From assembly GCA_028285595.1 (NCBI GenBank), contig JANQOW010000007.1:19036-83035 (forward strand): DNA of 64,000 nucleotides, given 5' to 3'. This document shows positions 2,395 through 16,480 of the stretch, in pieces. How positions within the stretch are numbered: position 1 is the stretch's first letter; each line of letters begins with the position of its first letter. The notes under the pieces are model-generated. The model saw nothing but the letters and a program-made list of their open reading frames with translations. It ran no database searches and had not been told where the DNA came from. The position numbers and the translations under genes were made by a program. The DNA is from Hyphomicrobiales bacterium (GTDB lineage Bacteria; Pseudomonadota; Alphaproteobacteria; Rhizobiales; CAJQND01).

Positions 2395-2515
2395 GGCGGT
2401 AATTGCCGGTTGTCCGGCACATTGCTCCCTTGCGTCCAGGCAGCGGAGCCGATATATCCTCGACGTCTCGATAAGGGCAGCGCATGATCTGCCCAACCTG
2501 CACGGCAGGAAAAGT

Positions 2516-2590
2516 GGGCGTGTAGCTCAGCGGGAGAGCACTACGTTGACATCGTAGGGGTCACTGGTTCAATCCCAGTCACGCCCACCA
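2516..2590 (+). tRNA. tRNA-Val: tRNA-Val (anticodon GAC), CCA encoded
   Basis: Cloverleaf folded by hand. Acceptor GGGCGTG/CACGCCC, D stem GCTC/GAGC, anticodon stem CTACG/CGTAG with loop TTGACAT, T arm ACTGG-TTCAATC-CCAGT, 3' ACCA. Confidence 0.93.
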
Positions 2591-2760
2591 CTTTTCTTCT
2601 CCACTTTACGACAGTTCTCGGGCGTGTCCATATTGTCCCGTGATTTCAGAGTCTTGCAGAGAATCTATTCGAGTTCTTCTGGTCGGGAGACGGCCAGGTT
2701 GGCTTGAGTTGGCCAAAACTGCGCATCCGTCTCTGCACGCGCTTTGGGGAGCCAGAAGTT

Positions 2761-3196
2761 TCAAGATGATGGAGCGTTGCGAGAACGGGGTTGGTGCGTG
2801 AAGCCCAGCAATGCATGTTGTTTCTGCCAATCTAATGGGAGGTCTTGAAGCTTTTTCAGTTTCGTCGTCGTTAGATCTGCAGGTTGCCGCCCAGCCAATA
2901 TGGTTTCAACAATATCCGGGGCTAGAGTCGCGAGCTGGAGCGTTCGGCTCAGTTCTGACGGGTCGGTCGTTTCCTGTTTCGCCAAGTCAGCTGGAGACCG
3001 GGCCTTGCCGGTATGGATTGCCAACGTCGCCGGCGTCTTCTTCGTGTACTGACGGCGGTCCGATAAAAATGTCGATCTCGGCCATCTCAAAACCTGTGAC
3101 TTCCACTTCGAAGTCGGGCTCTAGTGCGATCAATTCGGTAAGTTCGATCGACAGGGCGTTTAGGTCCCAGCCGGCATTCTCGACATCGATAAACAC
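2761..3196 (-). pseudogene. ParB/KorB-like DNA-binding protein remnant (truncated and frameshifted), probably a relic of an integrated element
   Basis: Two overlapping minus ORFs in different frames (2987..3196 and 2761..3090). The first contains ...EVEVTGFEMAEIDIF..., a ParB-associated linker pattern. The second contains ...LSRTLQLATLAPDIVETILAGRQPADL..., a ParB-type HTH-like pattern. No N-terminal ParB domain is present. Confidence 0.4.
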
Positions 3197-3539
3197 TGTT
3201 TCTGGAAACCTGATTTCAAGATAGTGTTATCGGAAATTCAAGAGCCATATTTGATACTCAATTTGGTGGTGAGCAAAGACTTCCGAAAAACGAACGTTTT
3301 TGGGAGGGGTACACGGATATCCGTATGACGCCGTGAAAGGGAAGACGTGCTCCGAGGCTCAGAACGGCGACTAATGACCCAAAACAGTCTTTCATGAATT
3401 TGGCGACCTGGGTCAATGCATTCCAGAGCTTTTAAGCGAAAGTGTCAACCGCTGAGTGTCAATCAGAAGTCCCAAGAACAACATTGAATATGAACTTTCG
3501 CGCGCGGAGGTCGTGCGCTCTTTCGAGTGCTCTGATTGC

Positions 3540-4397
3540 CTAAGACCGATCTAGCAACCTCATCGTCTCCAGTGTCAGTTCGCGGCATGGGTCGGCCAGA
3601 TCAAGGACAATGTCAAAATGATTGCGATCGGCAATTTCGAGTGTTTTAACCTGTTGGCTTCGCGTTTTCAGCGCCAGTGCATAGTCCTGGCTTTGCCGTT
3701 TGAATTCATTTGTATCCGTGCCCGCCCAAACAATGAGCACAGGAAAGTCGCAGACAGCGACTTGCCGGATCGGGCTGTTTCGCCGGGCGGCATCGATGTC
3801 AAGTTTCAGCCAGGTATTGGGGAGGCAAAGCCGAACAGGCTCAAGATCGAACAGACCGCTGATCAAACAAGCCCCGGCGCTCTGCACCTCCTGCTTTAGC
3901 GCCCAGTCGCTGTTCAACACCATCGCTGCCAAATGGCCTCCTGCGGAGGTGGAGGTGCCGCACAAGATAATCCGGTCCTGCGCAATCCCAAGGTCTTCTG
4001 CTTCGGACCAAAGGTGAGCCACACAGCGGCGCACCTGATCGACGATCTGGTCGAGGTTAGCACCGGGGGCAAGAGAATAGTTGATGGCGGCTACCGAGAT
4101 GCCGGCGTCAACAAAGCACTTTGCCATAAACCCTGACTCATCCTTGCTTAGGGCCCGCCAGTAGCCGCCGTGTATGAAAATGAGGAGCGGTGTGTTTTGC
4201 CCTGCCGGAAACAGATCATAGGTTTCGTCCGGATGGTCCCCGTAGGCCAAGTCGGTGAACACACGGCACTCGCGGCGCGCAGCTTCGCTCAGTTGGGCAT
4301 AACGGTGAAGGTAGATGTCAACATCGGGCACCGTCCCGCGCGCATTGTACTGGCGCTCCAGCTCGTCCTGATCCATACCGCGATAGATGGCTGCCAT
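3540..4397 (-). CDS. alpha/beta hydrolase, AFMID/KFase-type arylformamidase-like
   Basis: 285 aa with HGGYW oxyanion motif (FIHGGYWRALSKDES), nucleophile elbow STSAGGH and N-terminal ELERQYNARG. All resemble alpha/beta-fold kynurenine formamidases. Last gene of the 3-HAO operon, 9 nt after the preceding stop. Confidence 0.65.
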   Translation of the reverse strand: MAAIYRGMDQDELERQYNARGTVPDVDIYLHRYAQLSEAARRECRVFTDLAYGDHPDETYDLFPAGQNTPLLIFIHGGYWRALSKDESGFMAKCFVDAGISVAAINYSLAPGANLDQIVDQVRRCVAHLWSEAEDLGIAQDRIILCGTSTSAGGHLAAMVLNSDWALKQEVQSAGACLISGLFDLEPVRLCLPNTWLKLDIDAARRNSPIRQVAVCDFPVLIVWAGTDTNEFKRQSQDYALALKTRSQQVKTLEIADRNHFDIVLDLADPCRELTLETMRLLDRS

Positions 4398-4406
4398 GCC
4401 CAGGCC

Positions 4407-5108
4407 TCACACGCCCAAGTATTGCTGGCGCAACTGCGGTGCAGCCTGAAATGCCCCATGGTCGCCCTGCCAGCACGTTTTCCCCTTTTCGATGATGACA
4501 TGTTCATCAGCAATGCGGGAGAGTTCTTCAACGTTCTTGTCGACGATCAATATGCTCTCACCATCCTGTTTCAGCCCTTCCAGACAATCATAGATCTCCT
4601 GGCGGATGATTGGCGCGAGGCCCTCAGTTGCCTCGTCTAGGATGAGCAGGCGCGGATTGGTCATCAAGGCCCGCCCAATCGCCAGCATCTGCTGCTCGCC
4701 GCCAGACAGCGAGCTGCCTAGCTGGCCGGTCCGCTGGCCCAACCTTGGAAACAGGGCGTAGATCCTGTCGATGGTCCACGGCGTCGAACGTCCGTGCCGG
4801 TTTGCGGAGGTTGCGATCAGGTTTTCGCGTACGGAGAGAGTTGGAAAAATCTGTCGCCCTTCCGGCACAAGAGCTATCCCAAGCCGGCCGATCTGGTGGG
4901 GCTTCAGTCCGTCAAGCGCTCGGCCATGAAACCTGATTTCGCCAGATCGCACACCCAACAGTCCCACAATGGTCTTGATGGTGGTTGTCTTGCCCATGCC
5001 GTTCCGGCCCAGAAGAGTGACCACCTTTCCGCCCGGCACAGACAAGTCGATCCCGAACAGTACCTGGCTGAGGCCATAGCCGGCCTGCAAGCCTCTCACC
5101 TCAAGCAT
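4407..5108 (-). CDS. ABC transporter ATP-binding protein (LivF-like)
   Basis: Walker A GRNGMGKTT and LSGGEQQ signature. Start set at MLEVRGL, where ATGCTTGA overlaps the upstream stop. Confidence 0.85.
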   Translation of the reverse strand: MLEVRGLQAGYGLSQVLFGIDLSVPGGKVVTLLGRNGMGKTTTIKTIVGLLGVRSGEIRFHGRALDGLKPHQIGRLGIALVPEGRQIFPTLSVRENLIATSANRHGRSTPWTIDRIYALFPRLGQRTGQLGSSLSGGEQQMLAIGRALMTNPRLLILDEATEGLAPIIRQEIYDCLEGLKQDGESILIVDKNVEELSRIADEHVIIEKGKTCWQGDHGAFQAAPQLRQQYLGV

Positions 5109-5865
5109 CGCCAACCTCGCTGGCGCCCAGATAGGCTTCCTTGACGCGCTCATCGTTGCGAATGACATCCGGATCGCCGCTGGCGATCACCTGACCGTAG
5201 ACCAAGACAGATATCCGATCGGCCAGCGCGAAAACCGCATCCATGTCATGCTCCACCAAAAGCATGGAAATCTTGCCCTTCAAGCCCTGAAGCAGCGCGA
5301 TCACATCGTTGGTCTCTTCGGCTCCCATGCCTGCCATGGGTTCATCGAGCACCAGCAGCTTGGGATGGCGCGCCAGGGCCATGGCAAGCTCAAGCCGCCT
5401 TTGCTGACCGTGGGACAGTGCGTTGGCTTCGGTGTCGGCCTGCGCCAACAAGCCCACTTGGTCCAGACAGGCGAGCGCCGGTTCGCGGAGCAGGGGGTCT
5501 CCTTGGGCCGAGGCAAAGAAGCGGAAGCTGTGTCCGGCCCCAAGCTGCACCGCCATGGAGACGTTCTCCAGAGCCGTATACTCCCGGAAAATGGAGGTGA
5601 TCTGAAACGAGCGTACGAGGCCAAGCCCAGGTCTCTTTTGTTGGGGAGTGTGGGTGATGTTGCGCCCGGCGAACGTGATCTTGCCTAAGTCAGAGGCGAG
5701 CTGGCCGCACACTTGCGCGATCATCGTGGTCTTCCCGGCACCGTTTGGACCGATGACCGCGTGGAGCTCGCCTTCGGTCACATCCAGGTTGAGATTGTCG
5801 GAGGCGCGGAGTGCGCCAAACGATTTTGAGAGCCCTTCAATGCTCAAAATGGGATCATCGGCCAT
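5101..5865 (-). CDS. ABC transporter ATP-binding protein (LivG-like)
   Basis: Walker A GPNGAGKTT, signature LSHGQQRRLE, Walker B LLVLDEP. Confidence 0.88.
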   Translation of the reverse strand: MADDPILSIEGLSKSFGALRASDNLNLDVTEGELHAVIGPNGAGKTTMIAQVCGQLASDLGKITFAGRNITHTPQQKRPGLGLVRSFQITSIFREYTALENVSMAVQLGAGHSFRFFASAQGDPLLREPALACLDQVGLLAQADTEANALSHGQQRRLELAMALARHPKLLVLDEPMAGMGAEETNDVIALLQGLKGKISMLLVEHDMDAVFALADRISVLVYGQVIASGDPDVIRNDERVKEAYLGASEVGDA

Positions 5866-6868
5866 TACTTTGCCCTCGAAACATCAGCCCGTGAATGCCG
5901 CCACGCGCAAACAGCACGACGATGATCAGCAGAGGCCCAAACACAATGCGCCAATGTTCCTTGTATTGTGCCAGCGCCATGGATTCCATGATCGCGGGCA
6001 AGAACTCTTCGAGCGCCAGAAACACGCCTGCACCGATCACGGGGCCTGGAATTGTGCCCATTCCCCCGAGCACTACCATGATCATGAGATCGCCCGATTT
6101 GGTCCAGTGCAGATAGTCGGGGCTGACAAACTCTGTCAGATTAGCGTTGAGGACCCCCGCCAGGCCAGCCACCGCACCGGCTATCACAAAGGCCACAAGC
6201 TTGTAGCGCCGAACGTCGCAGCCCAATGCAAGCATGCGGGCCTCGTTTTGCTTGCAGGCCTTCAGCACAGCGCCAAAGCGCGAGCGCACAACCGCGCTGA
6301 ACAGCGCCATGAAGAGGACCAGGACGACTAGGCAAACGAAGTAGAAGGTCAAATCATTTGAGAGGTCGAGACCCGGAACAAAGCTGCGCCCATTGTACAT
6401 GATCACGCCGTCATCTCCGCCGTAGCGCTCCATGGACACAAACAGGAAATAGAGCATCTGCGCAAATGCCAGGGTGATCATGATGAAGAAGACGCCGCTG
6501 GTGCGTAAAGACAGATAGCCCAGGACCAGGGCTGCCAAAGCCGAGACGACAACGGCCAGTGGCCAGGTGAACAAGGCCGCATCGCTGCCTGACAGTCCGA
6601 AGATTGTTGAGTTCTGGAAGGCATGGAACGACATGATGCCGACCACATAAGCGCCTACGCCGAAATAGGCGGCGTGGCCAAAGCTGACCATGCCTCCATA
6701 TCCTAAGATGAAGTTGAGGCTTAGCGCCGCCAGGCCATAGATCGCGATGCGCGTCAGAAGCCCGATCAAGTACTCCTGCCCAGCCGCGATTAGAACGAAC
6801 GGAAGGGCAATCGAGACGGCCAGCGCACTCAGCGCAAGCAAGTGATGTTTGCTCATCTTGGCGCTCAA
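5855..6868 (-). CDS. branched-chain-amino-acid-type ABC permease (LivM-like)
   Basis: 337-aa polytopic membrane ORF. Overlaps both neighbours. Confidence 0.85.
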   Translation of the reverse strand: MSAKMSKHHLLALSALAVSIALPFVLIAAGQEYLIGLLTRIAIYGLAALSLNFILGYGGMVSFGHAAYFGVGAYVVGIMSFHAFQNSTIFGLSGSDAALFTWPLAVVVSALAALVLGYLSLRTSGVFFIMITLAFAQMLYFLFVSMERYGGDDGVIMYNGRSFVPGLDLSNDLTFYFVCLVVLVLFMALFSAVVRSRFGAVLKACKQNEARMLALGCDVRRYKLVAFVIAGAVAGLAGVLNANLTEFVSPDYLHWTKSGDLMIMVVLGGMGTIPGPVIGAGVFLALEEFLPAIMESMALAQYKEHWRIVFGPLLIIVVLFARGGIHGLMFRGQSNGR

Positions 6869-7788
6869 TGCCTCTGTGCGGCAACGGGGAAGAGCCCGTT
6901 GGGTCTGGCGATCAGGATTGCCGCCATGAGAATGTAGATTGACATGGACGACAGGCCTGCACCGATACCATCAGCCGATGCGGTGTCCATGAAGAGTTTC
7001 AAGAAATCCGTCAGGAAGGCGCGCCCGAGCGTGTCCACAACGCCAACAAGGATCGCCCCCACAAGCGCCCCGCGCACCGATCCGATACCGCCGATCACCA
7101 CGACCACAAAGGCCAGTATGAGTTGTTGTTCGCCCATCCCCACTTCAACCGAAACCAAAGGCCCTGCCATGGCGCCGGCCAGACCAGCAAAGACAGCGCC
7201 CAGCCCAAAGAGCAATGTGAACATCAGCCCGATATCCACGCCCAGAACGGCTACCATGTCCCGGTTGGTGGATCCGGCACGGATGAGCATGCCGGCCCGG
7301 GTGCGGGTGATTACAAAATAAAGCAAAGCAGCCACTGCACAGCCGACCGCGATGATGGTGAGCCGGTAGACAGGATAGTCGATGCCTGGAAGAATCTCGG
7401 CCGAGCCATTGAGGAACGGCGGTACATCGAGAAACAACGGCGTGCGCCCGAAAATGATTGTCAGCAGCTCATTGGCAAATAAGATCAGCCCAAATGTTGC
7501 CAGCACCTGATCCAGATGATCTCGGTTGTAGAGCCGCCGCATGATCACCAGCTCCATGGCCATGCCGACAAGCCCGGCAACCACCACCGCACCCAGGATG
7601 CCGATCAGGAATGATCCAGACCATTGGGTGCTCACAGCAGCAGCATAGGCGCCGATCATGAACAGCGAGCCATGCGCCAGATTGATCACCCCCATGATGC
7701 CAAAGATGAGCGTCAATCCAGCGGCGATAAGGAACAGGAAGACCCCCAATTGCAGCCCGTTCAGAATCTGTTCCAGTAGCAAAAACAT
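6865..7788 (-). CDS. branched-chain-amino-acid-type ABC permease (LivH-like)
   Basis: 307-aa polytopic membrane ORF with a 4-nt overlap with the next gene. Confidence 0.85.
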   Translation of the reverse strand: MFLLLEQILNGLQLGVFLFLIAAGLTLIFGIMGVINLAHGSLFMIGAYAAAVSTQWSGSFLIGILGAVVVAGLVGMAMELVIMRRLYNRDHLDQVLATFGLILFANELLTIIFGRTPLFLDVPPFLNGSAEILPGIDYPVYRLTIIAVGCAVAALLYFVITRTRAGMLIRAGSTNRDMVAVLGVDIGLMFTLLFGLGAVFAGLAGAMAGPLVSVEVGMGEQQLILAFVVVVIGGIGSVRGALVGAILVGVVDTLGRAFLTDFLKLFMDTASADGIGAGLSSMSIYILMAAILIARPNGLFPVAAQRH

Positions 7789-7858
7789 TCAAGAGCCCAA
7801 GAAAATGGAGGCAACCGAGATTGCCTCCATCATACAGGTGTGGAAACGCAAGGTCGCT

Positions 7859-9040
7859 CTATTTCAGCGGGCACTGATCCGCATAAGCGTCCTTATGGGA
7901 CTCGGCCACCACTTTTACGATCTTGTTCACGATGGTGCCGTCGGCCTGCTTTTCGACCACCTGCCCCAGCCAGTCATTCATGGGATGGTTGTTGTTGGCC
8001 AGCCTGAACTCGCCGCGCACGGATTCAAAGTCTGCCTTTTTCAATGCGGCCCTAAAGCCATCTTTGTCCGCGCTCACTTTGCCGCCGGTGGCCTTCAGGG
8101 CGCTGGCGATCAATTTGGCCGTATCGTAGCCTTGCGAGGCATAGACCGTTGGCACGCGGTTGTAGGCCTTCTTGAACCCGTCAACGAACGTCTTGTTTGC
8201 TGCATTGTCGAGCCACACGCTCCAATGGGACGTGCTGCGCACACCAACGGCGGCATCTTTGACCGCACCCATGATCTTCTCATCCATAGATGCTGTGGAG
8301 ACCACGAGCGGGAATTTGTCCTTCAGCCCGGCCTGAGAATATTGCTTAAGGAAGTTGATGCCCATGCCGCCGGGCAGAAAATGGAACACCATGTCGGGAT
8401 TGGCATCGCGGATCTTGGCGATCTCGGCCGCATAGTCGGTCTGGCCCAGTTTGGTATAGGTTTCCCCGGCAATCTTGCCTTTAAAGAAACGCTTGAAGCC
8501 GGCGAGCGAGTCCTTGCCCGCCTGATAATTGGGCGCAAGGATGTATGCATTCTTGTAGCCCAACTCGTTGGCATAGATGCCGGCGCTCTCGTGCAGACTG
8601 TCATTCTGCCAAGAGGCCACGAAGTAGTTTTCGTTGCAGCCCTTCCCGGCAAAAATCGACGGGGCGGAGTTCGGTGAGACGTAGAATGCGCCGGCTTTGA
8701 TCGTCAACGGCACAACCACAGGCGTGATGTTGGAGAAGATCACGCCCGTCATGATCTCCACTTTGTCTTTCTTCAAAAACTTGTCCGCAATCTGTTTGCC
8801 GTTGCCCGGCTTGCGGCCGTCATCCTCAACGAGCACTTCAACCTCCGTGCCGCCAAGTTTTCCACCTTCCTCGGAAACGGCCAGCAGGAAGCCGTCGCGA
8901 ACGTCTTCGCCGAGATATCCTGCACCTGTCGACAGGGTGGTTATCATACCGATCTTCACAGGCTCGGCCCAGGCGACGGCGCTGATCAAGCTTAAGGACG
9001 TGGCCGCAACCGCCGTCATAAGTTTGGATTTTAGGGTCAT
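7859..9040 (-). CDS. ABC transporter periplasmic substrate-binding protein (LivJ/K-type, Peripla_BP_6-like)
   Basis: Signal peptide MTLKSKLMTAVAATSLSLISAVAWA. Start chosen at 9040 behind a GGAGGA RBS; the track ORF starts at 9073. Confidence 0.85.
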   Translation of the reverse strand: MTLKSKLMTAVAATSLSLISAVAWAEPVKIGMITTLSTGAGYLGEDVRDGFLLAVSEEGGKLGGTEVEVLVEDDGRKPGNGKQIADKFLKKDKVEIMTGVIFSNITPVVVPLTIKAGAFYVSPNSAPSIFAGKGCNENYFVASWQNDSLHESAGIYANELGYKNAYILAPNYQAGKDSLAGFKRFFKGKIAGETYTKLGQTDYAAEIAKIRDANPDMVFHFLPGGMGINFLKQYSQAGLKDKFPLVVSTASMDEKIMGAVKDAAVGVRSTSHWSVWLDNAANKTFVDGFKKAYNRVPTVYASQGYDTAKLIASALKATGGKVSADKDGFRAALKKADFESVRGEFRLANNNHPMNDWLGQVVEKQADGTIVNKIVKVVAESHKDAYADQCPLK

Positions 9041-9080
9041 ATCGACGTTCCTCCAGGGGGCTTTTGGTTTCATGGGATAA

Positions 9081-10319
9081 TTAGTGCCCGCTTTCTTCCA
9101 AAGTCCAAATCGCAGGAAGATGAACCGGGCCGCGAAACGAGATGTTGGGTGGAAACTCTAGAGCATGGTCCTGCTTGAGCTCCAAGGTCGCAAACCTGTC
9201 GAGCATGCTGTTCAGCATCGCATCGAGCTCGATTTTCGAAAGCGGACGTCCTAGACAAAGATGTATGCCCTGACCGAAGGAGAGGTGATCGCGCGCCCGT
9301 TCTCTGCCGGGATCAAAGCGATCTGGATCATCAAACTTCGCAGGGTCCCGATTGGCCGCGGCAAGGGAAATCATAACCTTGGCGCCTTTGGGCAGTCGAA
9401 CGCCCCCAAGTTCAGTTTCCTGGGTTGTGATCCGGCGCCAGGCCACAACAGAAGAATCATGCCGCAGGCTTTCTTCGATTACCCCGTCAATCAGGTCACG
9501 ATCTGTCTTAATGGTCGGCCATAGACCGTTTTCGAGCACCTGGCGAATGCAATTCGATGCCTGATTTGTGGTGGTTTCGTGCCCTGCGAAACTGAGCCCG
9601 AACAGGATGCTCGCTAACTCGCGGTCGGTGAGCGGGTCGCCGTCCCGATCATCGGCCATCAGATCGCACGTCATATTGTCGGCAGGGTTCGTACGGCGGT
9701 CGGTGACGTAGTCAACGCAATAGTCCCAAAATGCCACCATGGTTTGTGCCGCTCTGATCTGGTGGTCCTCGGTGGGCCGGCCCCAGTTCACAATCAGCTT
9801 GTCGGCACACCATTCCTTGATCTGATCGGCATCCTCTTCGGGAAAGCCAACCATTGAGAATATGGTCAGCGCGGGAAGCGGATAGCATAACCCCTTGGCC
9901 AGGTCGCCTTCGCCTTTGCCGGCAAACTCATCCAGCAAGCTTTCACAGCGCTGCTTGACGATGGGCGTGAGCACCTGAAGCCGGCGCGCTGAGAAAGCCC
10001 GGGCAAGCTTGCGCCGGATCCGCGTGTGCTCTGGTTGGTCCAGATTGGACATCACGGGCTGAATGTTGAACCGTCCCTTGAGGATGTTCATCGCCTCATC
10101 GCACAAGGGCAAAAGAGGCGCTTGCACGTTGCCCGCCGAATAGATCTGATGATTGCGGAACACGGTGTCCACGTCTTCCCAGCGCGTGACGATCCACATG
10201 TCCAAGTCGTCACAATAGACCACTGGCGCGGCCTCCCTCTGGCGCGCGAGAAGCCGATAGGGGTCAGCGAGAAAGTCCTGCGACAGCGGATCGATTGTGG
10301 CGCGCGGCGTCATCGGCAA
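9081..10319 (-). CDS. cytochrome P450
   Basis: 412 aa with heme loop FGQGIHLCLG, I-helix AGHETT and ESLR (ExxR). No ferredoxin or reductase is encoded adjacent. Confidence 0.92.
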   Translation of the reverse strand: MPMTPRATIDPLSQDFLADPYRLLARQREAAPVVYCDDLDMWIVTRWEDVDTVFRNHQIYSAGNVQAPLLPLCDEAMNILKGRFNIQPVMSNLDQPEHTRIRRKLARAFSARRLQVLTPIVKQRCESLLDEFAGKGEGDLAKGLCYPLPALTIFSMVGFPEEDADQIKEWCADKLIVNWGRPTEDHQIRAAQTMVAFWDYCVDYVTDRRTNPADNMTCDLMADDRDGDPLTDRELASILFGLSFAGHETTTNQASNCIRQVLENGLWPTIKTDRDLIDGVIEESLRHDSSVVAWRRITTQETELGGVRLPKGAKVMISLAAANRDPAKFDDPDRFDPGRERARDHLSFGQGIHLCLGRPLSKIELDAMLNSMLDRFATLELKQDHALEFPPNISFRGPVHLPAIWTLEESGH

Positions 10320-10361
10320 CGCCCTCCTGGTTCTGTTATGCGCGGTGCCTGATGCAAGAAA

Positions 10362-10919
10362 TCACCCCAGCTCGACCCACCCTTTGGGTGGCTCCTTACC
10401 TGGGTGCAATGTGCCGCACTTTTTGCAGGTTCGGTCCGCTTCGCTACCATAGAAAGCATTGAACAGCGGCGGCAGGTCTTTCACGATGTCCGTGACCTTG
10501 ACCTCGACTCGGTGAACCAGCGCACCACAGCTAAAACAGAACCATTCAAAGCCATCCTTGTCCTCTTCCCGGCGGGTGCCTTCAACCACAAGACCGATGG
10601 AGCCGGGCACTGGGCGCTGCGGCGAGTGGCGCGCGTGGGGCGGCAGCACAAACACATCGCCCTCGCGAATGGTCACATCGTAAATGTCGTCGTTCTCGGC
10701 GATCTTCAGCACCATGTCGCCCTTGAGCTGATAGAAGAACTCTTCCACCGGATCGTCATGAAAATCGACCCGAACATTCGGTCCGCCGACAATCATCACA
10801 ACCATGTCAGTTTTCTCATCGAACAGTTGTTTGTTCGCAACCGGCGGCTTCAGCTGATCCTTGTTCCGCTCGATCCAATCGGCGAAGTTGAACGGTTTGA
10901 ACTTCGGATGGGCAGGCAT
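10362..10919 (-). CDS. nbaC: 3-hydroxyanthranilate 3,4-dioxygenase
   Basis: Cupin with DFHDDPVEEFFYQLKG and PPHARHSPQR metal-ligand regions. C-terminal rubredoxin-like CFSCG...CKKCG. Start at MPAHPKF (10919) behind a GAGG RBS. Confidence 0.88.
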   Translation of the reverse strand: MPAHPKFKPFNFADWIERNKDQLKPPVANKQLFDEKTDMVVMIVGGPNVRVDFHDDPVEEFFYQLKGDMVLKIAENDDIYDVTIREGDVFVLPPHARHSPQRPVPGSIGLVVEGTRREEDKDGFEWFCFSCGALVHRVEVKVTDIVKDLPPLFNAFYGSEADRTCKKCGTLHPGKEPPKGWVELG

Positions 10920-10972
10920 TGTAAACCTCGCTCGCGGAAAGATGTTTCGCACACACCAATCAGAAGAATATC

Positions 10973-11035
10973 ATTGGAATTTGCTATTTCATTCAAATGA
11001 ATTTAAGTGAATTTGCTATTGAGAATTGGAATAGC
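10973..11035. promoter_or_regulatory. divergent nbaC/LysR control region with nested repeats (putative LysR operator)
   Basis: GAATTTGCTATT occurs twice (10977-10988 and 11009-11020). Palindrome ATTCAAATGAAT at 10991-11002. GCTATT-N9-AATAGC at 11015-11035. ATTGGAAT occurs twice. Confidence 0.6.
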
Positions 11036-11037
11036 CG

Positions 11038-12003
11038 ATGACCGACCGCAACCGCCACGTTAAGATCATTGAGCGCGTTTCCACACGTCTGAAACTCAAG
11101 CAATTGCGCTTGCTTGTAGCCATAGCGGAACATTCCAGCATTCTCCATGCCGCAGATGAGATCCACATCTCGCAGCCCGCTGCCACAAAGCTCCTGAAGG
11201 ATCTGGAGACCGACTTCAACGTGAAGCTGTTCGATCGCACCAATAGAGGCGTTGTTCCCACCGAGTTTGGCCGAGCGCTCGTGCGCCACGGCAAGCTCAT
11301 TTTGGCGCAGATCTCGCACGCCGCTCAGGAACTCGACGATCTCAACGAAGGCCTCGGGGGCAGGGTGGTGGTAGGCACGCTCCTGACCGCATCGGCACAG
11401 TTGCTGCCAAACGTTATTAAGGTGCTGCATGAGCAGCGGCCCAACATTTCCATCGTTGTGCGCGATGGCACCAACGACTTTCTGATGCCTTTGCTCCACT
11501 CTGGAGAGCTCGACATGGTGGTGGGCCGGCTGGCTGAATACCGTTACCGGGAAGAACTTACCCAGGAAGTCCTCTACCATGAGGAGGTCGTGATTGTTTG
11601 CCGCAGGCAGCACCCGCTCGCTAGGGCGGCGAGCGTGGCGTTCGACAAGCTGGCTCAGTGCGACTGGATCCTGCCGCCCAGGCAAACCACCCTGCGCCGG
11701 CAGATTGACAAGGAATTCTTCGACCGCGGCCTCCACTCGCCCTCCAATCCTGTTGAGTGCGTGTCATTCCTGACCAACCGGTCCCTGCTGCTTGCGACTG
11801 ACATGATCGGGGTGTTTCCGGTCCACGTTGTGCAGAACGAAATCGCCAACGGAGAGCTCGCGGTCATCAAGTGCAAGCTGAACATTTCAGAAAGCCCAGT
11901 GGGCATTTCCTATCGGCGCGAAGATGCCCTGTCGCCTGCGGCTACCGCCTTCCTTGCACAGCTTAGGATGCAGTCAGCCGAACTGGCGACCGGGCGCGCC
12001 TGA
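11038..12003 (+). CDS. LysR family transcriptional regulator
   Basis: 321 aa with an N-terminal wHTH (LKQLRLLVAIAEHSSILHAADEIHISQPAATKLLKDLE). Divergent from nbaC. Confidence 0.9.
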   Translation: MTDRNRHVKIIERVSTRLKLKQLRLLVAIAEHSSILHAADEIHISQPAATKLLKDLETDFNVKLFDRTNRGVVPTEFGRALVRHGKLILAQISHAAQELDDLNEGLGGRVVVGTLLTASAQLLPNVIKVLHEQRPNISIVVRDGTNDFLMPLLHSGELDMVVGRLAEYRYREELTQEVLYHEEVVIVCRRQHPLARAASVAFDKLAQCDWILPPRQTTLRRQIDKEFFDRGLHSPSNPVECVSFLTNRSLLLATDMIGVFPVHVVQNEIANGELAVIKCKLNISESPVGISYRREDALSPAATAFLAQLRMQSAELATGRA

Positions 12004-12007: not shown

Positions 12008-12814
12008 TCAGATGCCCACGCGCCGTGTCCGTCGCTTCAGCTCCGCCACGATGCTCATGGCGGCAAGGGCTGAAGATTTCGGATTGCCCGGCAGTGGATT
12101 GCCTTCCACCTTCACGTTCAATCGGCCAAAGGCGCCGGCGGCGTCAATCTCGTGGATGTTCTTGTCCACACCGGGATCTGCGATCAGCCGCACGCTCACC
12201 TGATCCAATCCAAGACTTGCCAGAGCGATTGTAGCGGCAACGTTGGCGTTCTTCGGATAAAGCCGTGCGGCTTCCCGGGCCGTACCGGCAAAATGCTCAA
12301 ACGGCTCTTGAAGGCTGGCTAGGTCGCACTTGCCGTCTGCCGGCGAGCCGGCCCAGCCTTGCGGAGGCTTTCGTCCCGTATAGACCACCTTCTCCAGCCC
12401 GCCCGCATGGGCTGACAGGAGGGCATCTATCCCGCCAACGGCGCCCGGCAAGAACCTGATTGAGGATGCTCCTTTTTCAGCGCTCGTGCTGAGCTCTTCC
12501 AAAAGCGCTTCGTGCGCAAGCGCACCGGTCGAGATGGAAATCACATCGATGCCGGCTTGCAAGGCTGACGGCGCATGGGCGGCAAGCCCGGAATGGCCGG
12601 CGCAATCCACCAGGAGGTCCGGCCTGTCGGACAACTCATCCACAGCCGCCAACACGCTAAACCGTCCATCGGCCAATTCTTCGGCCTTCGACCGGGACGC
12701 CTCCCGGCAAATCAAGGCGATTATCGCGATCTCTTCAAGAGGAGAGACTTGGTCCACCACATATCCGGCAATCGCGCCGTATCCAACCAGAGCAATCTTC
12801 AATTCATGTGCCAT
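12008..12814 (-). CDS. aspartate dehydrogenase domain-containing protein (NadX-like)
   Basis: 268 aa with N-terminal Rossmann IALVGYGAIAG. Overall family resemblance to L-aspartate dehydrogenase. Confidence 0.65.
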   Translation of the reverse strand: MAHELKIALVGYGAIAGYVVDQVSPLEEIAIIALICREASRSKAEELADGRFSVLAAVDELSDRPDLLVDCAGHSGLAAHAPSALQAGIDVISISTGALAHEALLEELSTSAEKGASSIRFLPGAVGGIDALLSAHAGGLEKVVYTGRKPPQGWAGSPADGKCDLASLQEPFEHFAGTAREAARLYPKNANVAATIALASLGLDQVSVRLIADPGVDKNIHEIDAAGAFGRLNVKVEGNPLPGNPKSSALAAMSIVAELKRRTRRVGI

Positions 12815-12970
12815 CGTCCTGACTTTCTTGGAGCACTGACATCAGGTAACACAGGTGCCAGAGATCACTGCTATTGATTTGGGTTATACCTGCTTTGTAT
12901 TTTTTCAGTTGAGGTTTGTTCCGAATTGTCTGAGCTTGCCGGCGGAGTGTAGCGGCTTGAAAGATCTTCG

Positions 12971-13924
12971 ATGAGATACAAAAAGAGCGAAGCCAAAGAG
13001 TATTCGCGCGAGCACATGAGAGGGATCTGGGCGGCCGCTCTGAACCCCATGACCGCGGATTTTCAGATTGACGAAGCTGGTCTGCGCCGCAACCTTAACC
13101 ACTGGATTGACGACCTGAAAATACAGGGCGTTTTTATCGCAGGAAAGCAAGGTGAATTCTTCTCCATGTCGGTGGAGGAGCGCAAGCGCAACTTTGAGCT
13201 TGCTGTTGAAGTCTGTGATGACCGGGCCGGAACCATCATGTCGTGCTCGGATCAGAATTTTGACACGGTTGTCGAGCTTGCCCGCCATGCGCAGAATGTG
13301 GGGGCGGACTACATCGTGGTTCATGCGCCAGTTCTGCATTTCATACACGATCGCGACGACACGATCTTCAACTACTACAAGGAGATATGCGACCGCGTCG
13401 ATATCGGCATTGCTATGTGGAGCCACCCGGATTCAGGCTATCTGATGAGCCCGGAACTGTGTGCCAGGGTTGCCGATCTGCCCAATATCATGGCGATCAA
13501 ATACTCCGTACCCCGCGAGATGTATACCGAACTTACGCGCCTGGCAGGCGACAAGATCCTCGTCAGCACCGCCTCAGAAGACGAATGGTTGGACAATATC
13601 CTGGAGCTCGGCTGGCAGCTCTATCTTTGCTCATCGCCGCCCTATCTCATGCAAACCAAGATCGATCTGAGAATGCATGAATACACCCAACTGGCGTTTG
13701 CAGGTGAGGCAGAGCGGGCCAGAGCCGTACGCGACAGTCTGGAGCCGGTGCGCCAGGCCTTGAAAGGCACCCGCCCTGGCGGCAAACCGCAGGCGCATCA
13801 GAAATACTGGCAGGAACTTCTGGGCCAGGCCGGCGGGCCCGCCAGGCCTCCACTGCTCCAACTCACCGACGATGAAAAAACCAGGACAAAGGCCGCCTTT
13901 GAGAGTTGCGGCCTGTCGCTTTGA
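12971..13924 (+). CDS. dihydrodipicolinate synthase family protein (class I aldolase/dehydratase)
   Basis: 317 aa, DapA-like, with a candidate Schiff-base Lys in NIMAIKYS. Confidence 0.75.
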   Translation: MRYKKSEAKEYSREHMRGIWAAALNPMTADFQIDEAGLRRNLNHWIDDLKIQGVFIAGKQGEFFSMSVEERKRNFELAVEVCDDRAGTIMSCSDQNFDTVVELARHAQNVGADYIVVHAPVLHFIHDRDDTIFNYYKEICDRVDIGIAMWSHPDSGYLMSPELCARVADLPNIMAIKYSVPREMYTELTRLAGDKILVSTASEDEWLDNILELGWQLYLCSSPPYLMQTKIDLRMHEYTQLAFAGEAERARAVRDSLEPVRQALKGTRPGGKPQAHQKYWQELLGQAGGPARPPLLQLTDDEKTRTKAAFESCGLSL

Positions 13925-13939
13925 GCGGCCGATGGGGCC

Positions 13940-16446: not shown

Positions 16447-16480
16447 ATATTTATCCAGCGGCACGCCATGGGAGAAGTCA

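What the first reader, a model, noticed from the sequence alone, without database searches (positions are those of the whole stretch)
3540..10919. 8-gene operon: 3-HAO, P450, Liv-type ABC importer and AFMID-type formamidase, without TDO/KMO/kynureninase/ACMSD
Seen: eight co-directional minus-strand genes are separated by at most 70 nt or overlap (ATGCTTGA and ATGA-type junctions). They are nbaC-like 3-hydroxyanthranilate dioxygenase (cupin ligands plus a C-terminal Cys4 site) and a P450 (FGQGIHLCLG, AGHETT). Next come a binding protein, two permeases and two ATPases, then an alpha/beta hydrolase with HGGYW resembling eukaryote-type kynurenine formamidase. Known: the aerobic kynurenine route to 3-hydroxyanthranilate needs TDO, formamidase, flavin KMO and kynureninase. 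Catabolism beyond 3-HAO normally needs ACMS decarboxylase. None of these is in the window. Known anthranilate 3-hydroxylases are flavin enzymes. Inference: an imported N-formyl or N-acyl arylamine (for example N-formylanthranilate or formylkynurenine) is deacylated. The P450 then hydroxylates it to 3-hydroxyanthranilate, which is ring-cleaved. This would be a P450-dependent shortcut not described to my knowledge. No P450 redox partner is encoded nearby.
Basis: partly seen in the sequence, partly recalled or inferred. Interest (0 to 1): 0.6.

Follow-up and report, generated by a model that had tools for sequence, protein, structure and literature searches.

The report
P450-linked 3-hydroxyanthranilate breakdown gene cluster
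An alphaproteobacterial gene cluster pairs a previously unstudied cytochrome P450 with the ring-opening enzyme for 3-hydroxyanthranilate, and next to it lie three genes that probably finish the breakdown by a route not yet described in bacteria.

Summary
The eight minus-strand genes are real and tightly packed (gaps of -11 to 70 nt). They are a bona fide 3-hydroxyanthranilate 3,4-dioxygenase (3-HAO), a class I P450, a five-part Liv-type ABC importer and a serine hydrolase carrying the kynurenine-formamidase motifs. No TDO, KMO, kynureninase, ACMSD or ferredoxin gene turned up in the ORFs I scanned.

Two things change the picture. First, the P450-3-HAO link is conserved: 13 of 21 loci with a P450 of this clade (55-100% identity) have 3-HAO within 10 kb, in at least five gene orders. 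These include clusters with and without ACMSD. So the P450 most likely makes the 3-HAO substrate. It is still an add-on, because cultured Chelatococcus and Paroceanicella carry the same operon without it.

These are an AspDH-like gene, a DHDPS-family gene and an aldehyde dehydrogenase (12008-15376). The DHDPS-family orthologue lies within 13 kb of 3-HAO on 42 of 42 checkable alphaproteobacterial plasmids. It is absent from classical ACMSD-type clusters.

The substrate and the chemistry are inferred, not shown.

The parts
3540..4397 (-). Serine hydrolase (285 aa) of the HGGYW / kynurenine-formamidase-like branch of Abhydrolase_3. It is the last gene of the operon.
   Evidence: Pfam BD-FAE 3.6e-18 and Abhydrolase_3 1.9e-15. 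PDB hits: 9n8r 'Lipase 1' 6.8e-37, 2pbl 6.7e-21, Drosophila kynurenine formamidase 4e11 3.4e-12. HGGYW, the SAGGHL nucleophile elbow, the Asp of D-x-x-F-x-x-QS and the HFDI(I/V) His all align. Orthologues at 51-58% identity sit in the related P450 loci; those at 37-39% sit in Chelatococcus, Paroceanicella and Ensifer.
4407..5108 (-). ABC ATPase, LivF/UrtE-like (233 aa from the ATG that overlaps the upstream stop codon).
   Evidence: PF00005; UrtE and LivF models are the best hits, both below cut-off; ATGCTTGA overlap.
5101..5865 (-). ABC ATPase, LivG/UrtD-like.
   Evidence: PF00005 plus PF12399 BCA_ABC_TP_C.
5855..6856 (-). ABC permease, LivM/UrtC-like.
   Evidence: PF02653 1.6e-42; called as 333 aa in the identical metagenome contig L001.
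6865..7788 (-). ABC permease, LivH/UrtB-like.
   Evidence: PF02653 9.5e-33.
7859..9040 (-). Periplasmic substrate-binding protein (Peripla_BP_6). Its nearest solved relatives are binding proteins for benzoate derivatives.
   Evidence: PF13458 2.5e-73. PDB hits: 4evq 2.6e-44, 4ey3 1.2e-40, 4evs, 4f06. That these entries are the Rhodopseudomonas palustris proteins is from memory. That RPA0668 and RPA0985 bind benzoate and 4-hydroxybenzoate is stated in PMC6079105. Identity is 53-59% to the SBPs of the P450-less Chelatococcus and Paroceanicella operons and 71-89% to those in P450 loci.
9081..10313 (-). Class I cytochrome P450 (410 aa) from an alphaproteobacterial clade with no characterised member. 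It lies between 3-HAO and the transporter genes.
   Evidence: PF00067; FGQGIHLCLG, AGHETT and EESLR motifs; an AGGAGG sequence lies upstream of the ATG. Best solved homologue is 5gwe, 1e-81 and 36% identity. Orthologues at 55-89% identity are all in alphaproteobacterial MAGs or metagenomes. 3-HAO lies within 10 kb in 13 of 21 loci.
10362..10919 (-). 3-hydroxyanthranilate 3,4-dioxygenase (NbaC/HAAO). It is the first gene of the operon.
   Evidence: NCBIfam NF009763 259 bits (cut-off 220) and TIGR03037 232 bits (cut-off 146). 1yfu 2.6e-60, with all catalytic and Cys4 residues aligned.
10920..11037 (.). Divergent control region between 3-HAO and LysR. It holds a 12-bp direct repeat, GAATTTGCTATT, at 10977-10988 and 11009-11020.
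   Evidence: 2 copies found; 0.19 expected by chance. Both copies are kept in the same intergenic region of the closest relative, L002. Function as an operator is inferred.
11038..12003 (+). LysR-type regulator (PcaQ-like), divergent from the operon.
   Evidence: PF00126 plus PF03466; TIGR02424 PcaQ 235 bits, below the cut-off of 304. It is conserved next to 3-HAO in L002, L005, L010-L016 (65-96% identity) and Phaeobacter (51%). Only 25-29% LysR matches were found in the Chelatococcus, Paroceanicella, Rhizobium and Sinorhizobium loci.
12008..12814 (-). Aspartate-dehydrogenase-family protein. It is a candidate imine/enamine reductase of the lower pathway.
   Evidence: PF01958 plus PF03447; NF009828 310 bits (cut-off 177). 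The catalytic His lies in NIHEI, aligned with the A. fulgidus and T. maritima AspDH enzymes. A homologue lies beside 3-HAO in Rhizobium, Sinorhizobium, Phaeobacter, Chelatococcus, Paroceanicella, L002, L005 and L016, and beside the P450 in L012. Human ASPDH has been shown to be a 2-aminomuconate reductase (bioRxiv 10.64898/2026.06.05.730449).
12971..13924 (+). DHDPS/N-acetylneuraminate-lyase-family protein of an uncharacterised subfamily. It is a candidate Schiff-base lyase or decarboxylase replacing ACMSD.
   Evidence: PF00701 1.3e-29. No NCBIfam model reaches its cut-off, and the best solved relative scores only 1.8e-18. The sequence has the GxxGE and AIKYS (Lys) motifs. There are 47 plasmid orthologues at 65-73% identity. 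The 42 that could be checked all lie within 12.8 kb of 3-HAO, and 19 lie within 1.6 kb.
13940..15376 (-). NAD(P)-dependent aldehyde dehydrogenase (SSADH-like). It is a candidate ACMS (semialdehyde) dehydrogenase.
   Evidence: PF00171; every NCBIfam ALDH model is below cut-off. Orthologues at 63-69% identity lie beside 3-HAO in Rhizobium, Sinorhizobium, Phaeobacter and Ensifer. In Chelatococcus, Paroceanicella, Hoeflea, L007 and L016 a molybdenum subunit takes its place. That subunit is most similar to glyceraldehyde dehydrogenase alpha.

Best explanation
The eight genes form one LysR-controlled operon in an alphaproteobacterium. This operon is the uptake and 'upper' half of a 3-hydroxyanthranilate (3-HAA) catabolic regulon. 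The 'lower' half lies across the divergent regulator gene (AspDH-like, DHDPS-family, ALDH; 12008-15376).

Proposed flow:
1. An aromatic carboxylate of the anthranilate type, probably N-acylated or esterified, is imported by the Liv-type ABC system. Its binding protein resembles binders of benzoate derivatives.
2. The kynurenine-formamidase-like serine hydrolase removes the acyl or formyl group.
3. The P450, using a ferredoxin and reductase encoded elsewhere, turns the freed arylamine into 3-HAA. The simplest version is 3-hydroxylation of anthranilate.
4. 3-HAO opens the ring to 2-amino-3-carboxymuconate semialdehyde (ACMS).
5. Instead of decarboxylation by ACMSD, the aldehyde is oxidised by the ALDH (in other lineages by a molybdenum enzyme). 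The product is a 3-substituted dehydro- or imino-aspartate.
6. The AspDH-type enzyme and the DHDPS-family Schiff-base enzyme process that product. They may reduce the imine and cleave or decarboxylate at C3-C4.

What is shown: gene identities, operon structure and the conserved gene linkages. What is inferred: the substrate, the P450 reaction, the order of steps and all the lower-pathway chemistry.
For: - Operon structure and families.
- 3-HAO is genuine: it scores above the equivalog cut-off and keeps all catalytic residues.
- P450-3-HAO linkage: 13 of 21 loci with a P450 of this clade have 3-HAO within 10 kb. There are at least five architectures:
  - HAO-P450-SBP in the window and L001-L005.
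  - P450 convergent on the hydrolase end in five Hoeflea/Rhizobiaceae MAGs.
  - P450 convergent on the ATPase in L016.
  - LysR | P450-GST-HAO-Mo subunit in L007.
  - LysR | HAO-ACMSD-Abhydrolase_6-P450 in L095.

- The HAO-linked P450s sit on several deep branches of the clade. The link holds with both ACMSD-type and DHDPS/AspDH-type lower pathways. This points to a role upstream of 3-HAO.
- Other 3-HAO clusters carry a different upper module at the same place: kynureninase in Phaeobacter, and DUF4863 plus flavin reductase in Rhizobium and Sinorhizobium. A flavin reductase also follows 3-HAO in Cupriavidus.
- An anthranilate -> 3-HAA -> meta-cleavage route with an FAD hydroxylase is known in Geobacillus (PMC4539516).
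- The SBP's nearest solved relatives are benzoate-type binders.
- The hydrolase keeps the HGGYW motif and the Ser-Asp-His triad aligned with Drosophila kynurenine formamidase.
- Lower module: the DHDPS-family orthologue lies within 12.8 kb of 3-HAO on 42 of 42 checkable plasmids. It is absent from all 24 listed non-alphaproteobacterial 3-HAO plasmids. Two of those, when opened, show the classical RidA-HAO-ACMSD-dmp set.
- ALDH and the Mo subunit replace one another.
- A metazoan ASPDH acts on 2-aminomuconate.
Against: - No experiment bears on any step.
- The same HAO-SBP-permease-ATPase-hydrolase operon works without a P450 in Chelatococcus and Paroceanicella. So the imported compound there must give 3-HAA without it.
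- 8 of 21 P450 orthologues are not near 3-HAO. No residue positions separate them from the linked ones.
- The closest solved P450s are 36% identical and act on unrelated aromatics (their substrates are from memory).
- No redox partner is encoded nearby.
- The hydrolase is nearer to an unannotated 'Lipase 1' and a putative esterase than to formamidase.
- The AspDH-like protein has the ordinary AspDH histidine position, not the shifted one of the human reductase. It scores above the NCBIfam AspDH cut-off, so it may simply be an aspartate dehydrogenase.
- ALDH plus a DHDPS-family dehydratase plus a lactonase-like SGL gene (16256-17401) is also the pattern of sugar-acid pathways.
Confidence: 0.5

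Rival explanations
1. The P450 still feeds 3-HAO but is a dealkylase or acts on the conjugate. For example, it could O-demethylate 3-methoxyanthranilate, N-demethylate, or hydroxylate the still-acylated or esterified compound, with the hydrolase acting afterwards. On this view P450-less operons take up the already hydroxylated compound, and the P450 widens the substrate range.
For: - P450-less orthologous operons exist.
- The nearest solved relatives include CYP116B-type enzymes (6kbh, 6ro8, 6gii), which are known for O-dealkylation (from memory).
- In seven loci the P450 travels with a 243-aa Abhydrolase_6. After the uncharacterised 6tj2, its named solved relatives are ester hydrolases (pyrethroid hydrolase, SABP2). 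This fits an esterified aromatic acid.
Against: There is no methyl-handling gene in the window and no direct evidence on the substrate. Simple hydroxylation needs fewer assumptions.
Confidence: 0.2
2. The P450 is a passenger. It has an unrelated job, such as detoxification, and sits beside the 3-HAO cluster through shared ancestry or as part of a catabolic island. The operon's real substrate is a 3-HAA conjugate that needs only the hydrolase.
For: - Orthologous operons without the P450 exist.
- 8 of 21 P450 orthologues stand alone in unrelated contexts.
- No specificity positions separate linked from unlinked P450s.
- No redox partner lies nearby.
Against: The linkage survives at least five different rearrangements and spans P450 identities of 55-100%. 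It includes a compact LysR | P450-GST-HAO unit and an HAO-ACMSD-Abhydrolase_6-P450 unit that lacks the transporter. 3-HAO is rare, found on 78 of 72,556 plasmids, so chance adjacency is very unlikely.
Confidence: 0.12
3. Kynurenine route. The hydrolase is an N-formylkynurenine formamidase and the P450 replaces the flavin KMO as a kynurenine 3-hydroxylase. TDO and kynureninase are encoded elsewhere in the genome.
For: The hydrolase carries formamidase motifs. Phaeobacter places kynureninase in its 3-HAO cluster.
Against: - No kynureninase or TDO appears in the window or in any of the 13 P450-HAO loci.
- The binding protein resembles benzoate binders, not amino-acid binders.
- Two essential steps would have to be unlinked while an accessory step is linked.
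Confidence: 0.08
4. NAD supply rather than catabolism. 3-HAO makes ACMS, which cyclises spontaneously to quinolinate. The neighbouring AspDH is an ordinary NadX that makes iminoaspartate for the other quinolinate route. On this view the cluster scavenges an NAD precursor.
For: - There is no ACMSD.
- The AspDH-like protein scores above the NCBIfam AspDH cut-off and has the AspDH-type His.
- Spontaneous ACMS -> quinolinate conversion is established chemistry.
Against: - No nadA or nadC lies nearby.
- An ATP-driven importer, a LysR activator, an ALDH and a DHDPS-family enzyme strictly linked to 3-HAO fit carbon and nitrogen catabolism better than vitamin-scale flux.
- The ALDH-to-Mo-enzyme replacement implies that an aldehyde is oxidised, which would compete with quinolinate formation.
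Confidence: 0.08

Closest known systems
Anthranilate -> 3-hydroxyanthranilate -> meta-cleavage pathway of Geobacillus thermodenitrificans NG80-2 (Liu et al. 2010, as reviewed in PMC4539516)
   Same: Both have a hydroxylase clustered with 3-HAO so that anthranilate enters catabolism through 3-HAA. A separate upper oxygenase module sits next to the ring-cleavage gene.
   Different: The Geobacillus hydroxylase is FAD-dependent and has its own FAD reductase. Here the candidate is a heme-thiolate P450 with no partner nearby. This cluster also has an ABC importer and a hydrolase, and its lower pathway lacks ACMSD.
Classical nba/kynurenine lower pathway (NbaC-NbaD/ACMSD-NbaE-NbaF/RidA-dmp genes), seen here in Cupriavidus pauculus and Vibrio nigripulchritudo plasmids
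   Same: The ring-cleavage enzyme is the same (56-59% identity), and LysR control is shared.
   Different: The window and the related alphaproteobacterial clusters lack the ACMSD amidohydrolase, the RidA deaminase and the dmpEGH genes. In their place are an AspDH-like gene, a DHDPS-family gene and an SSADH-like ALDH (or a Mo subunit).
Metazoan ASPDH = 2-aminomuconate reductase (bioRxiv 10.64898/2026.06.05.730449)
   Same: An aspartate-dehydrogenase-family protein is tied to the steps after 3-HAO. The substrate is a 2-amino-dienedioate that resembles dehydro-aspartate.
   Different: The metazoan enzyme works after ACMSD and AMSDH and has its catalytic His shifted two residues. The bacterial protein keeps the AspDH-type His and sits in clusters without ACMSD. 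If it acts in the pathway, its substrate would be the 3-carboxylated compound or iminoaspartate itself. That preprint treats prokaryotic homologues as true AspDH.
Solved P450s 5gwe/5xjn (CreJ of Corynebacterium glutamicum, from memory) and the CYP116B group (6kbh, 6ro8, 6gii, 6laa)
   Same: Same class I bacterial P450 fold. These are the closest solved sequences (1e-81 to 1e-68). Their substrates are small aromatics.
   Different: Identity is only 36%, below the usual 40% line for a CYP family. There is no fused reductase domain. Their known substrates (phosphorylated p-cresol, alkoxy-aromatics, thiocarbamates; from memory) are unrelated to anthranilate.
Eukaryote-type kynurenine formamidase (AFMID; Drosophila KFase 4e11)
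   Same: HGGYW oxyanion motif, S-A-G nucleophile elbow, and the Asp and His of the triad in the same aligned places.
   Different: Similarity is weak overall (3.4e-12). There is a two-residue insertion before the nucleophile. The protein is closer to uncharacterised bacterial proteins (9n8r, 2pbl). Activity is untested.
HAAT-family (Liv/Urt-type) ABC importers with benzoate-derivative binding proteins of Rhodopseudomonas palustris
   Same: Five-component layout. The binding protein is most similar to the benzoate and 4-hydroxybenzoate binders.
   Different: The ligand is unknown, and the match is 2.6e-44 rather than orthology. Here the importer is embedded in a 3-HAO operon.

Membership tests
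3-hydroxyanthranilate 3,4-dioxygenase (NbaC/HAAO) | Scores above the curated equivalog threshold | tested here: met
   NF009763 259.3 bits (cut-off 220); TIGR03037 231.9 bits (cut-off 145.95).
3-hydroxyanthranilate 3,4-dioxygenase (NbaC/HAAO) | Cupin His/Glu/His iron ligands, substrate Arg/Arg/Glu residues, and the C-terminal rubredoxin-like Cys4 of bacterial enzymes | tested here: met
   The alignment to 1yfu (2.6e-60) keeps the H..E (vdfHddpvEe), H..R (rHspqRp), E (vvEg), CfsC and CkkC positions. The residue roles are from memory of the 1yfu literature.
3-hydroxyanthranilate 3,4-dioxygenase (NbaC/HAAO) | Cleaves 3-HAA to ACMS | not testable with these tools
   This needs an enzyme assay.
Cytochrome P450 (class I bacterial) | Cys-ligand loop FxxGxHxCxG, ExxR, and the I-helix AGxxT | tested here: met
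   FGQGIHLCLG, EESLR and AGHETT are all present. PF00067 3.8e-29. They are invariant in the 20-sequence orthologue alignment A1.
CYP116 / CreJ-type P450 family | At least 40% identity to a named member (CYP nomenclature convention) | tested here: not met
   36% identity over 393 residues to 5gwe. 34-37% to Rhodococcus plasmid P450s, including P450/oxidoreductase fusions.
Anthranilate 3-hydroxylase (function) | Converts anthranilate to 3-HAA | not testable with these tools
   Only gene context is available: 13 of 21 loci have 3-HAO within 10 kb.
Kynurenine/aryl formamidase, AFMID type | HGGYW oxyanion motif and a Ser-Asp-His triad at the positions of Drosophila KFase | tested here: met
   Alignment to 4e11: HGGYW = HGGYW; SAGGHL ~ SAGAHL; TDtneFkrQS ~ HDsttFieQS; NHFDIV ~ DHFDII.
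Kynurenine/aryl formamidase, AFMID type | Closest characterised relatives are formamidases, or a curated model is passed | tested here: inconclusive
   No NCBIfam model reaches its cut-off; the best is HaHSL_fam at 145 bits against 320. The PDB order is 'Lipase 1' 6.8e-37, putative esterase 6.7e-21, then KFase 3.4e-12.
HAAT (Liv-type) ABC importer | A Peripla_BP_6 binding protein, two BPD_transp_2 permeases, and LivG- and LivF-like ATPases in one operon | tested here: met
L-aspartate dehydrogenase (NadX) | Curated model passed; catalytic His in the N-I-H motif | tested here: met
   NF009828 310 bits (cut-off 177). NIHEI aligns with NIHEI in 2dc1 and NIHIV in 1h2h.
L-aspartate dehydrogenase (NadX) | Genomic link to NAD synthesis (nadA/nadC) | tested here: not met
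   No nadA or nadC is in the window. The gene is instead linked to 3-HAO in 9 or more loci from different genera.
2-aminomuconate reductase (metazoan ASPDH/AMR) | Catalytic His shifted two residues upstream of the AspDH position | tested here: not met
   The His is at the AspDH position (criterion).
Classical ACMSD-dependent 3-HAA lower pathway | Amidohydro_2 ACMSD, AMS dehydrogenase, RidA-type deaminase, and 4-oxalocrotonate branch genes near 3-HAO | tested here: not met
   None is in the window. They are present in the Cupriavidus, Vibrio and L095 comparators.
DHDPS / N-acetylneuraminate lyase superfamily | Pfam DHDPS domain with the Schiff-base Lys motif | tested here: met
   PF00701 1.3e-29 over the full length. 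GKQGE and AIKYS motifs are present. No subfamily model is passed, and the best solved relative scores 1.8e-18.

The most novel reading that the evidence does not exclude
Many Alphaproteobacteria degrade 3-hydroxyanthranilate by a route that needs no ACMSD. In it the ring-cleavage aldehyde is oxidised, either by an SSADH-like ALDH or by a molybdenum enzyme that can take its place. The resulting 2-amino-3-carboxymuconate is then handled as a substituted imino-aspartate by an AspDH-type enzyme and a new DHDPS-family lyase. In some lineages a new P450 family is the first heme-thiolate enzyme that makes 3-HAA from anthranilate. This would extend the ASPDH-kynurenine link, just reported for animals, to bacteria.
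Probability: 0.3. Interest if true: 0.8.

Novelty: new variant of a known kind. Interest (0 to 1): 0.65.

Why it matters
3-HAA sits at the branch between NAD synthesis and full oxidation of tryptophan and anthranilate. Every textbook route beyond it passes through ACMSD.

A conserved bacterial gene set that replaces ACMSD with an AspDH-type enzyme and a DHDPS-family enzyme would be a new catabolic branch. It would also change how the many proteobacterial genes annotated 'aspartate dehydrogenase' and 'dihydrodipicolinate synthase family' are read. It would give a bacterial counterpart to the 2026 report that animal ASPDH acts in tryptophan catabolism.

A P450 that makes 3-HAA would add a third enzyme class to the known flavin and pterin anthranilate 3-hydroxylases. 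It would also give a function to a P450 clade known so far only from uncultured Alphaproteobacteria.

Cultured strains that carry the lower module (Phaeobacter, Ensifer, Rhizobium, Chelatococcus, Paroceanicella) make that part directly testable.

Tried and rejected
- Exact-sequence look-ups found the window's P450 and ALDH only on two short Logan metagenome contigs, so no annotated parent genome was available. Searches found nothing.
- No redox partner was found beside the P450 in the window or in related loci. One stand-alone orthologue (L093) has Fer2 and Pyr_redox_2 genes 7-8 kb away.
- I considered a quinaldine/4-quinolone-type route, with a Mo hydroxylase, a Hod-like cofactor-free dioxygenase and an N-acylanthranilate amidase. 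I dropped it. The 243-aa Abhydrolase_6 of related loci shows no match to Hod/Qdo structures at E<1e-5, and the window lacks that gene.
- I considered that ALDH, the DHDPS-family gene and the SGL gene are merely a sugar-acid pathway next door. That reading does not explain the strict DHDPS-3-HAO linkage.
- A search for residues that separate HAO-linked from stand-alone P450s found none.
- Promoter and terminator scans were no better than shuffled sequence.
- Literature searches for the PDB codes 6TJ2, 9N8R and 4EVQ, and a broad organism search, gave nothing useful. The CreJ paper could not be fetched.
- I found no paper in the held library that links bacterial AspDH or DHDPS-family genes to 3-HAA. 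This is not proof that none exists.

Full report
**1.

ORF listing and translation show eight co-directional minus-strand genes between 3540 and 10919. With the most plausible start codons the gaps are 48, 40, 70, 8, -11, -8 and 9 nt.

Pfam and NCBIfam give these assignments:
- 3-HAO at 10362-10919. It passes two curated equivalog thresholds.
- A P450 at 9081-10313.
- A Peripla_BP_6 binding protein, two BPD_transp_2 permeases, and LivG- and LivF-like ATPases.
- An Abhydrolase_3/BD-FAE hydrolase at 3540-4397.

The 3-HAO aligns with the Cupriavidus enzyme 1yfu at 2.6e-60. The iron ligands, the substrate-binding Arg/Glu residues and all four C-terminal cysteines are in place.

Pfam and NCBIfam scans of the other sizeable ORFs found no TDO, KMO, kynureninase, ACMSD, nadA or nadC. 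A tblastn with an ACMSD from a related locus found nothing in the window. No ferredoxin or ferredoxin reductase was seen other than the 2Fe-2S subunit of a CoxMSL-type enzyme. Promoter and terminator pattern scans were uninformative.

**2. What the individual proteins resemble**

*P450.* Its best solved relatives are 5gwe/5xjn (1e-81) and the CYP116B group. From memory, 5gwe/5xjn is CreJ, which acts on phosphorylated p-cresol. Identity to 5gwe is 36%, below the customary line for a CYP family. So nothing characterised tells us the substrate.

*Binding protein.* The nearest solved relatives are 4evq, 4ey3, 4evs and 4f06. I recall these as the Rhodopseudomonas palustris binders of benzoate derivatives. 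PMC6079105 confirms that RPA0668 and RPA0985 bind benzoate and 4-hydroxybenzoate. An aromatic carboxylate ligand is therefore plausible.

*Hydrolase.* It aligns with Drosophila kynurenine formamidase at HGGYW, at the S-A-G nucleophile elbow, and at the Asp and His of the triad. It is nevertheless closer to an uncharacterised 'Lipase 1' (9n8r) and a putative esterase (2pbl). No curated model is passed.

**3. The P450-3-HAO pairing is conserved, but the P450 is an accessory**

A protein search found a clade at 55-100% identity, followed by a drop to 52% or less, mostly actinobacterial P450s. I scanned species-representative genomes with an alignment of the clade. I then ran tblastn with the window's proteins and called ORFs on the returned loci.

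3-HAO lies next to the P450 in five arrangements:
- L002-L005 have the window's order.
- Five Hoeflea/Rhizobiaceae MAGs (L010, L011, L013-L015) have the P450 convergent on an Abhydrolase_6-HAO-SBP-permease-permease-ATPase-ATPase-hydrolase operon.
- L016 (Sneathiellaceae) has the same arrangement but no formamidase-like hydrolase.
- L007 has LysR | P450-GST-HAO-Mo subunit.
- A 55% orthologue on a metagenome contig (L095) sits in LysR | HAO-Amidohydro_2(ACMSD)-Abhydrolase_6-P450-CoA ligase-GST.

In all, 13 of 21 loci have 3-HAO within 10 kb. The eight without it are L006, L008, L009, L012, L083, L084, L093 and L094.

In a neighbour-joining tree the linked P450s occupy several deep branches, and the unlinked ones are nested among them. 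No alignment column cleanly separates the two groups. The actinobacterial relatives at 42-49% identity show no link to 3-HAO.

3-HAO is a rare gene, found on 78 of 72,556 plasmids. The link also survives changes of gene order, of transporter and of lower pathway. Chance or mere inheritance is therefore a poor explanation. The products of 3-HAO are unstable open-chain acids, so a P450 tied to 3-HAO most plausibly acts before it.

Against a core role, cultured Chelatococcus sp. CO-6 and Paroceanicella profunda carry orthologous HAO-SBP-permease-permease-ATPase-ATPase(-hydrolase) operons with no P450. There the SBP is 53-59% identical, the permeases and ATPases 52-66%, and the hydrolase 39%. No plasmid of a cultured organism has a P450 above 37% identity.

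**4.

Across the divergent LysR gene (11038-12003) lie three more genes: an AspDH-family gene (12008-12814), a DHDPS-family gene (12971-13924) and an SSADH-like ALDH (13940-15376).

I searched plasmids of cultured bacteria with the 3-HAO and opened the annotated regions. The same genes turned up beside 3-HAO:
- Rhizobium bangladeshense and Sinorhizobium mexicanum: LysR | DHDPS-HAO-AspDH-ALDH-Liv-type ABC.
- Phaeobacter inhibens: DHDPS | AspDH-LysR ... kynU | regulator-ALDH-HAO.
- Ensifer adhaerens: ALDH-DHDPS-HAO.
- Chelatococcus and Paroceanicella: Mo subunit-DHDPS-HAO-ABC-(hydrolase)-AspDH.

Identities to the window proteins are 68-72% for DHDPS, 63-69% for ALDH, 60-65% for HAO and 33-47% for AspDH.

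The DHDPS-family protein has 47 plasmid matches at E<=1e-60. All are 65-73% identical, and their genus distribution mirrors that of the alphaproteobacterial 3-HAO hits. Of these, 42 are among the 66 3-HAO plasmids that I could list. In all 42 the two genes are within 12.8 kb, counting one pair across a plasmid origin, and in 19 they are within 1.6 kb.

The 24 listed 3-HAO plasmids without this orthologue are from Beta- and Gammaproteobacteria, Actinobacteria or Bacillus. The two that I opened (Cupriavidus pauculus, Vibrio nigripulchritudo) show the classical RidA-HAO, ACMSD-type amidohydrolase, semialdehyde dehydrogenase and dmp genes.

So Alphaproteobacteria carry a distinct set of 3-HAO companions with no ACMSD.

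**5. A replacement pattern points to one of the steps**

Clusters with the SSADH-like ALDH have no neighbouring orthologue of the Mo subunit. These are the window, Rhizobium, Sinorhizobium, Phaeobacter and Ensifer.

Clusters with a ~760-aa xanthine-dehydrogenase-family Mo subunit show no ALDH in the DNA held. These are Chelatococcus, Paroceanicella, the Hoeflea MAGs, L007 and L016, and their subunits are 47-64% identical to one another.

The best NCBIfam match of that subunit is glyceraldehyde dehydrogenase alpha (605 bits, below cut-off). I read this as two alternative ways of oxidising the aldehyde of ACMS. This is inference. The window's own CoxMSL genes (17424-21281) are only 27-29% identical to that subunit, and I do not count them in.

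**6. Proposed chemistry (inferred)**

Oxidising ACMS gives 2-amino-3-carboxymuconate. Its C1-C3 part is a dehydro- or imino-aspartate carrying a carboxyvinyl group.

A June 2026 preprint shows that human ASPDH is an NAD(P)H-dependent 2-aminomuconate reductase. It notes the likeness of that substrate to dehydro-aspartate.

The window's AspDH-like protein keeps the ordinary AspDH histidine (NIHEI), not the shifted one of the human enzyme. This would suit proton transfer at C3 of a 3-substituted imino-aspartate, or reduction of iminoaspartate itself.

The DHDPS-family protein keeps the Schiff-base lysine motif but is far from every solved member (1.8e-18) and passes no subfamily model. Enzymes of this superfamily cleave C3-C4 of 4-hydroxy-2-oxo acids, or decarboxylate and dehydrate through a Schiff base. 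Either reaction could replace ACMSD here. The possible products are iminoaspartate or oxaloacetate plus a C3 acid-aldehyde, or a decarboxylated 2-oxo-hexenedioate. I cannot choose between these.

**7. The upper part**

Other 3-HAO clusters carry different genes at the equivalent place. Phaeobacter has kynureninase, and Rhizobium and Sinorhizobium have DUF4863 plus flavin reductase. Cupriavidus has a flavin reductase directly after 3-HAO.

A flavin-dependent anthranilate 3-hydroxylase clustered with 3-HAO is known from Geobacillus thermodenitrificans (PMC4539516).

The P450 fits the same slot, so anthranilate 3-hydroxylation is the simplest proposal. O-demethylation of a 3-methoxy analogue, or action on a still-conjugated precursor, fits equally well with the P450-less operons.

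The formamidase-like hydrolase travels with this particular ABC system (window lineage, Hoeflea, Chelatococcus, Paroceanicella; nearby in Ensifer). It is absent from the Rhizobium and Phaeobacter clusters. It therefore most likely unmasks the imported compound and is not part of the lower pathway.

In seven P450 loci a 243-aa Abhydrolase_6 is present as well. Its top solved match is the uncharacterised 6tj2 (4.6e-61), and its named solved relatives are ester hydrolases. This hints at esterified substrates in those lineages.

**8. Comparison with what is known, and novelty**

By every sequence test the 3-HAO is an ordinary member of its family. The ABC system is an ordinary HAAT-type importer.

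The P450 is not a member of the CYP116/CreJ families by the 40% convention. The hydrolase has the formamidase motifs but is not shown to be a formamidase.

The cluster as a whole resembles the Geobacillus anthranilate-via-3-HAA route in logic. It differs in the hydroxylase class, in having an importer and a hydrolase, and in the lower pathway.

In the held literature I found no paper that links bacterial AspDH-family or DHDPS-family genes to 3-HAA, and none on a P450 clustered with 3-HAO. That library is incomplete. I rate the finding a new variant of a known kind.

**9. Verdict**

The idea that the P450 feeds 3-HAO survives a real test, although the enzyme is accessory and its reaction is unknown. 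The more general result is the conserved AspDH/DHDPS/ALDH (or Mo-enzyme) companion set of alphaproteobacterial 3-HAO, and it can be tested in cultured strains.

Confidence in the composite explanation is about 0.5, and interest is 0.65.

Noticed in passing
window 2400-3540: There is no convincing gene between the response-regulator gene (ends 2394) and the hydrolase stop. One 109-aa ORF (2761-3090, minus strand) contains '...LATLAPDIVETILAGRQP...', which looks like a fragment of a recombinase or ParB-like protein. It may be a remnant of a mobile element at the 3' edge of the operon.
   Followed up: no
window 10977-10988 and 11009-11020: The 12-bp direct repeat GAATTTGCTATT occurs twice in the 3-HAO/LysR intergenic region, flanked by ATTGGAA motifs. 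By chance 0.19 copies would be expected in the window. Both copies are kept in the same place in the closest relative, L002. It is a candidate LysR operator.
   Followed up: partly
window 15872-17401 and 17424-21281: The called gene at L082 2876-3193, which maps to about window 15872-16189, is a 105-aa gamma-glutamyltranspeptidase fragment and a likely pseudogene. It lies within the window ORF 15872-16342 listed. Next to it are an SGL (SMP-30/gluconolactonase) gene and a complete CoxM/CoxS/CoxL-type molybdenum enzyme. Paroceanicella has a full gamma-glutamyltransferase gene a few kb from its 3-HAO cluster. Whether any of these belong to the pathway is unknown.
   Followed up: partly
L010 17474-18205, L016 16519-17250, L095 9277-10008: A 243-aa Abhydrolase_6 accompanies the P450 and 3-HAO in the Hoeflea, Sneathiellaceae and L095 loci (51-88% identical to each other). 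It is absent from the window and from the P450-less operons. Its best solved match is the uncharacterised 6tj2 (4.6e-61), followed by pyrethroid hydrolase and SABP2-type esterases.
   Followed up: partly
L007 7098-7931; L095 12973-13617: A GST-family gene sits between the P450 and 3-HAO in L007 and just downstream of the P450 in L095. The L007 gene's N-terminal half resembles maleylacetoacetate isomerase. In both loci a CoA-ligase-like gene is also nearby. The two GSTs are only 23% identical.
   Followed up: no
L085 8027-9774; L089 7952-9709: Rhizobium and Sinorhizobium 3-HAO clusters carry DUF4863, an FMN-reductase-like domain and a flavin reductase, all divergent from the LysR gene. This is a possible flavin-dependent counterpart of the P450 module.
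   Followed up: no
L093 1830-3497: A 2Fe-2S ferredoxin (Fer2, 106 aa) and a Pyr_redox_2 gene lie 7-8 kb upstream of a stand-alone P450 orthologue (65% identity). They are candidate redox partners for this P450 clade.
   Followed up: no
window 34651-39268: A separate small cluster holds an ALDH, an iron-type alcohol dehydrogenase, two small proteins (one with a weak tautomerase-family match) and a divergent AraC regulator.
   Followed up: no
window 23201-30301: This stretch holds a beta-keto acid cleavage enzyme (BKACE), TRAP transporter genes, a 709-aa fused E1 alpha-beta 2-oxoacid dehydrogenase component and an HpcH/HpaI-type aldolase. It is an unusual combination, and I did not examine it.
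   Followed up: no
window 58650-63412: This stretch holds an Asp/Asn beta-hydroxylase-family gene, a DegT-type aminotransferase, a 340-aa protein with no family match and a DyP-like N-terminal-domain protein. It may be a small modification or biosynthetic cluster.
   Followed up: no
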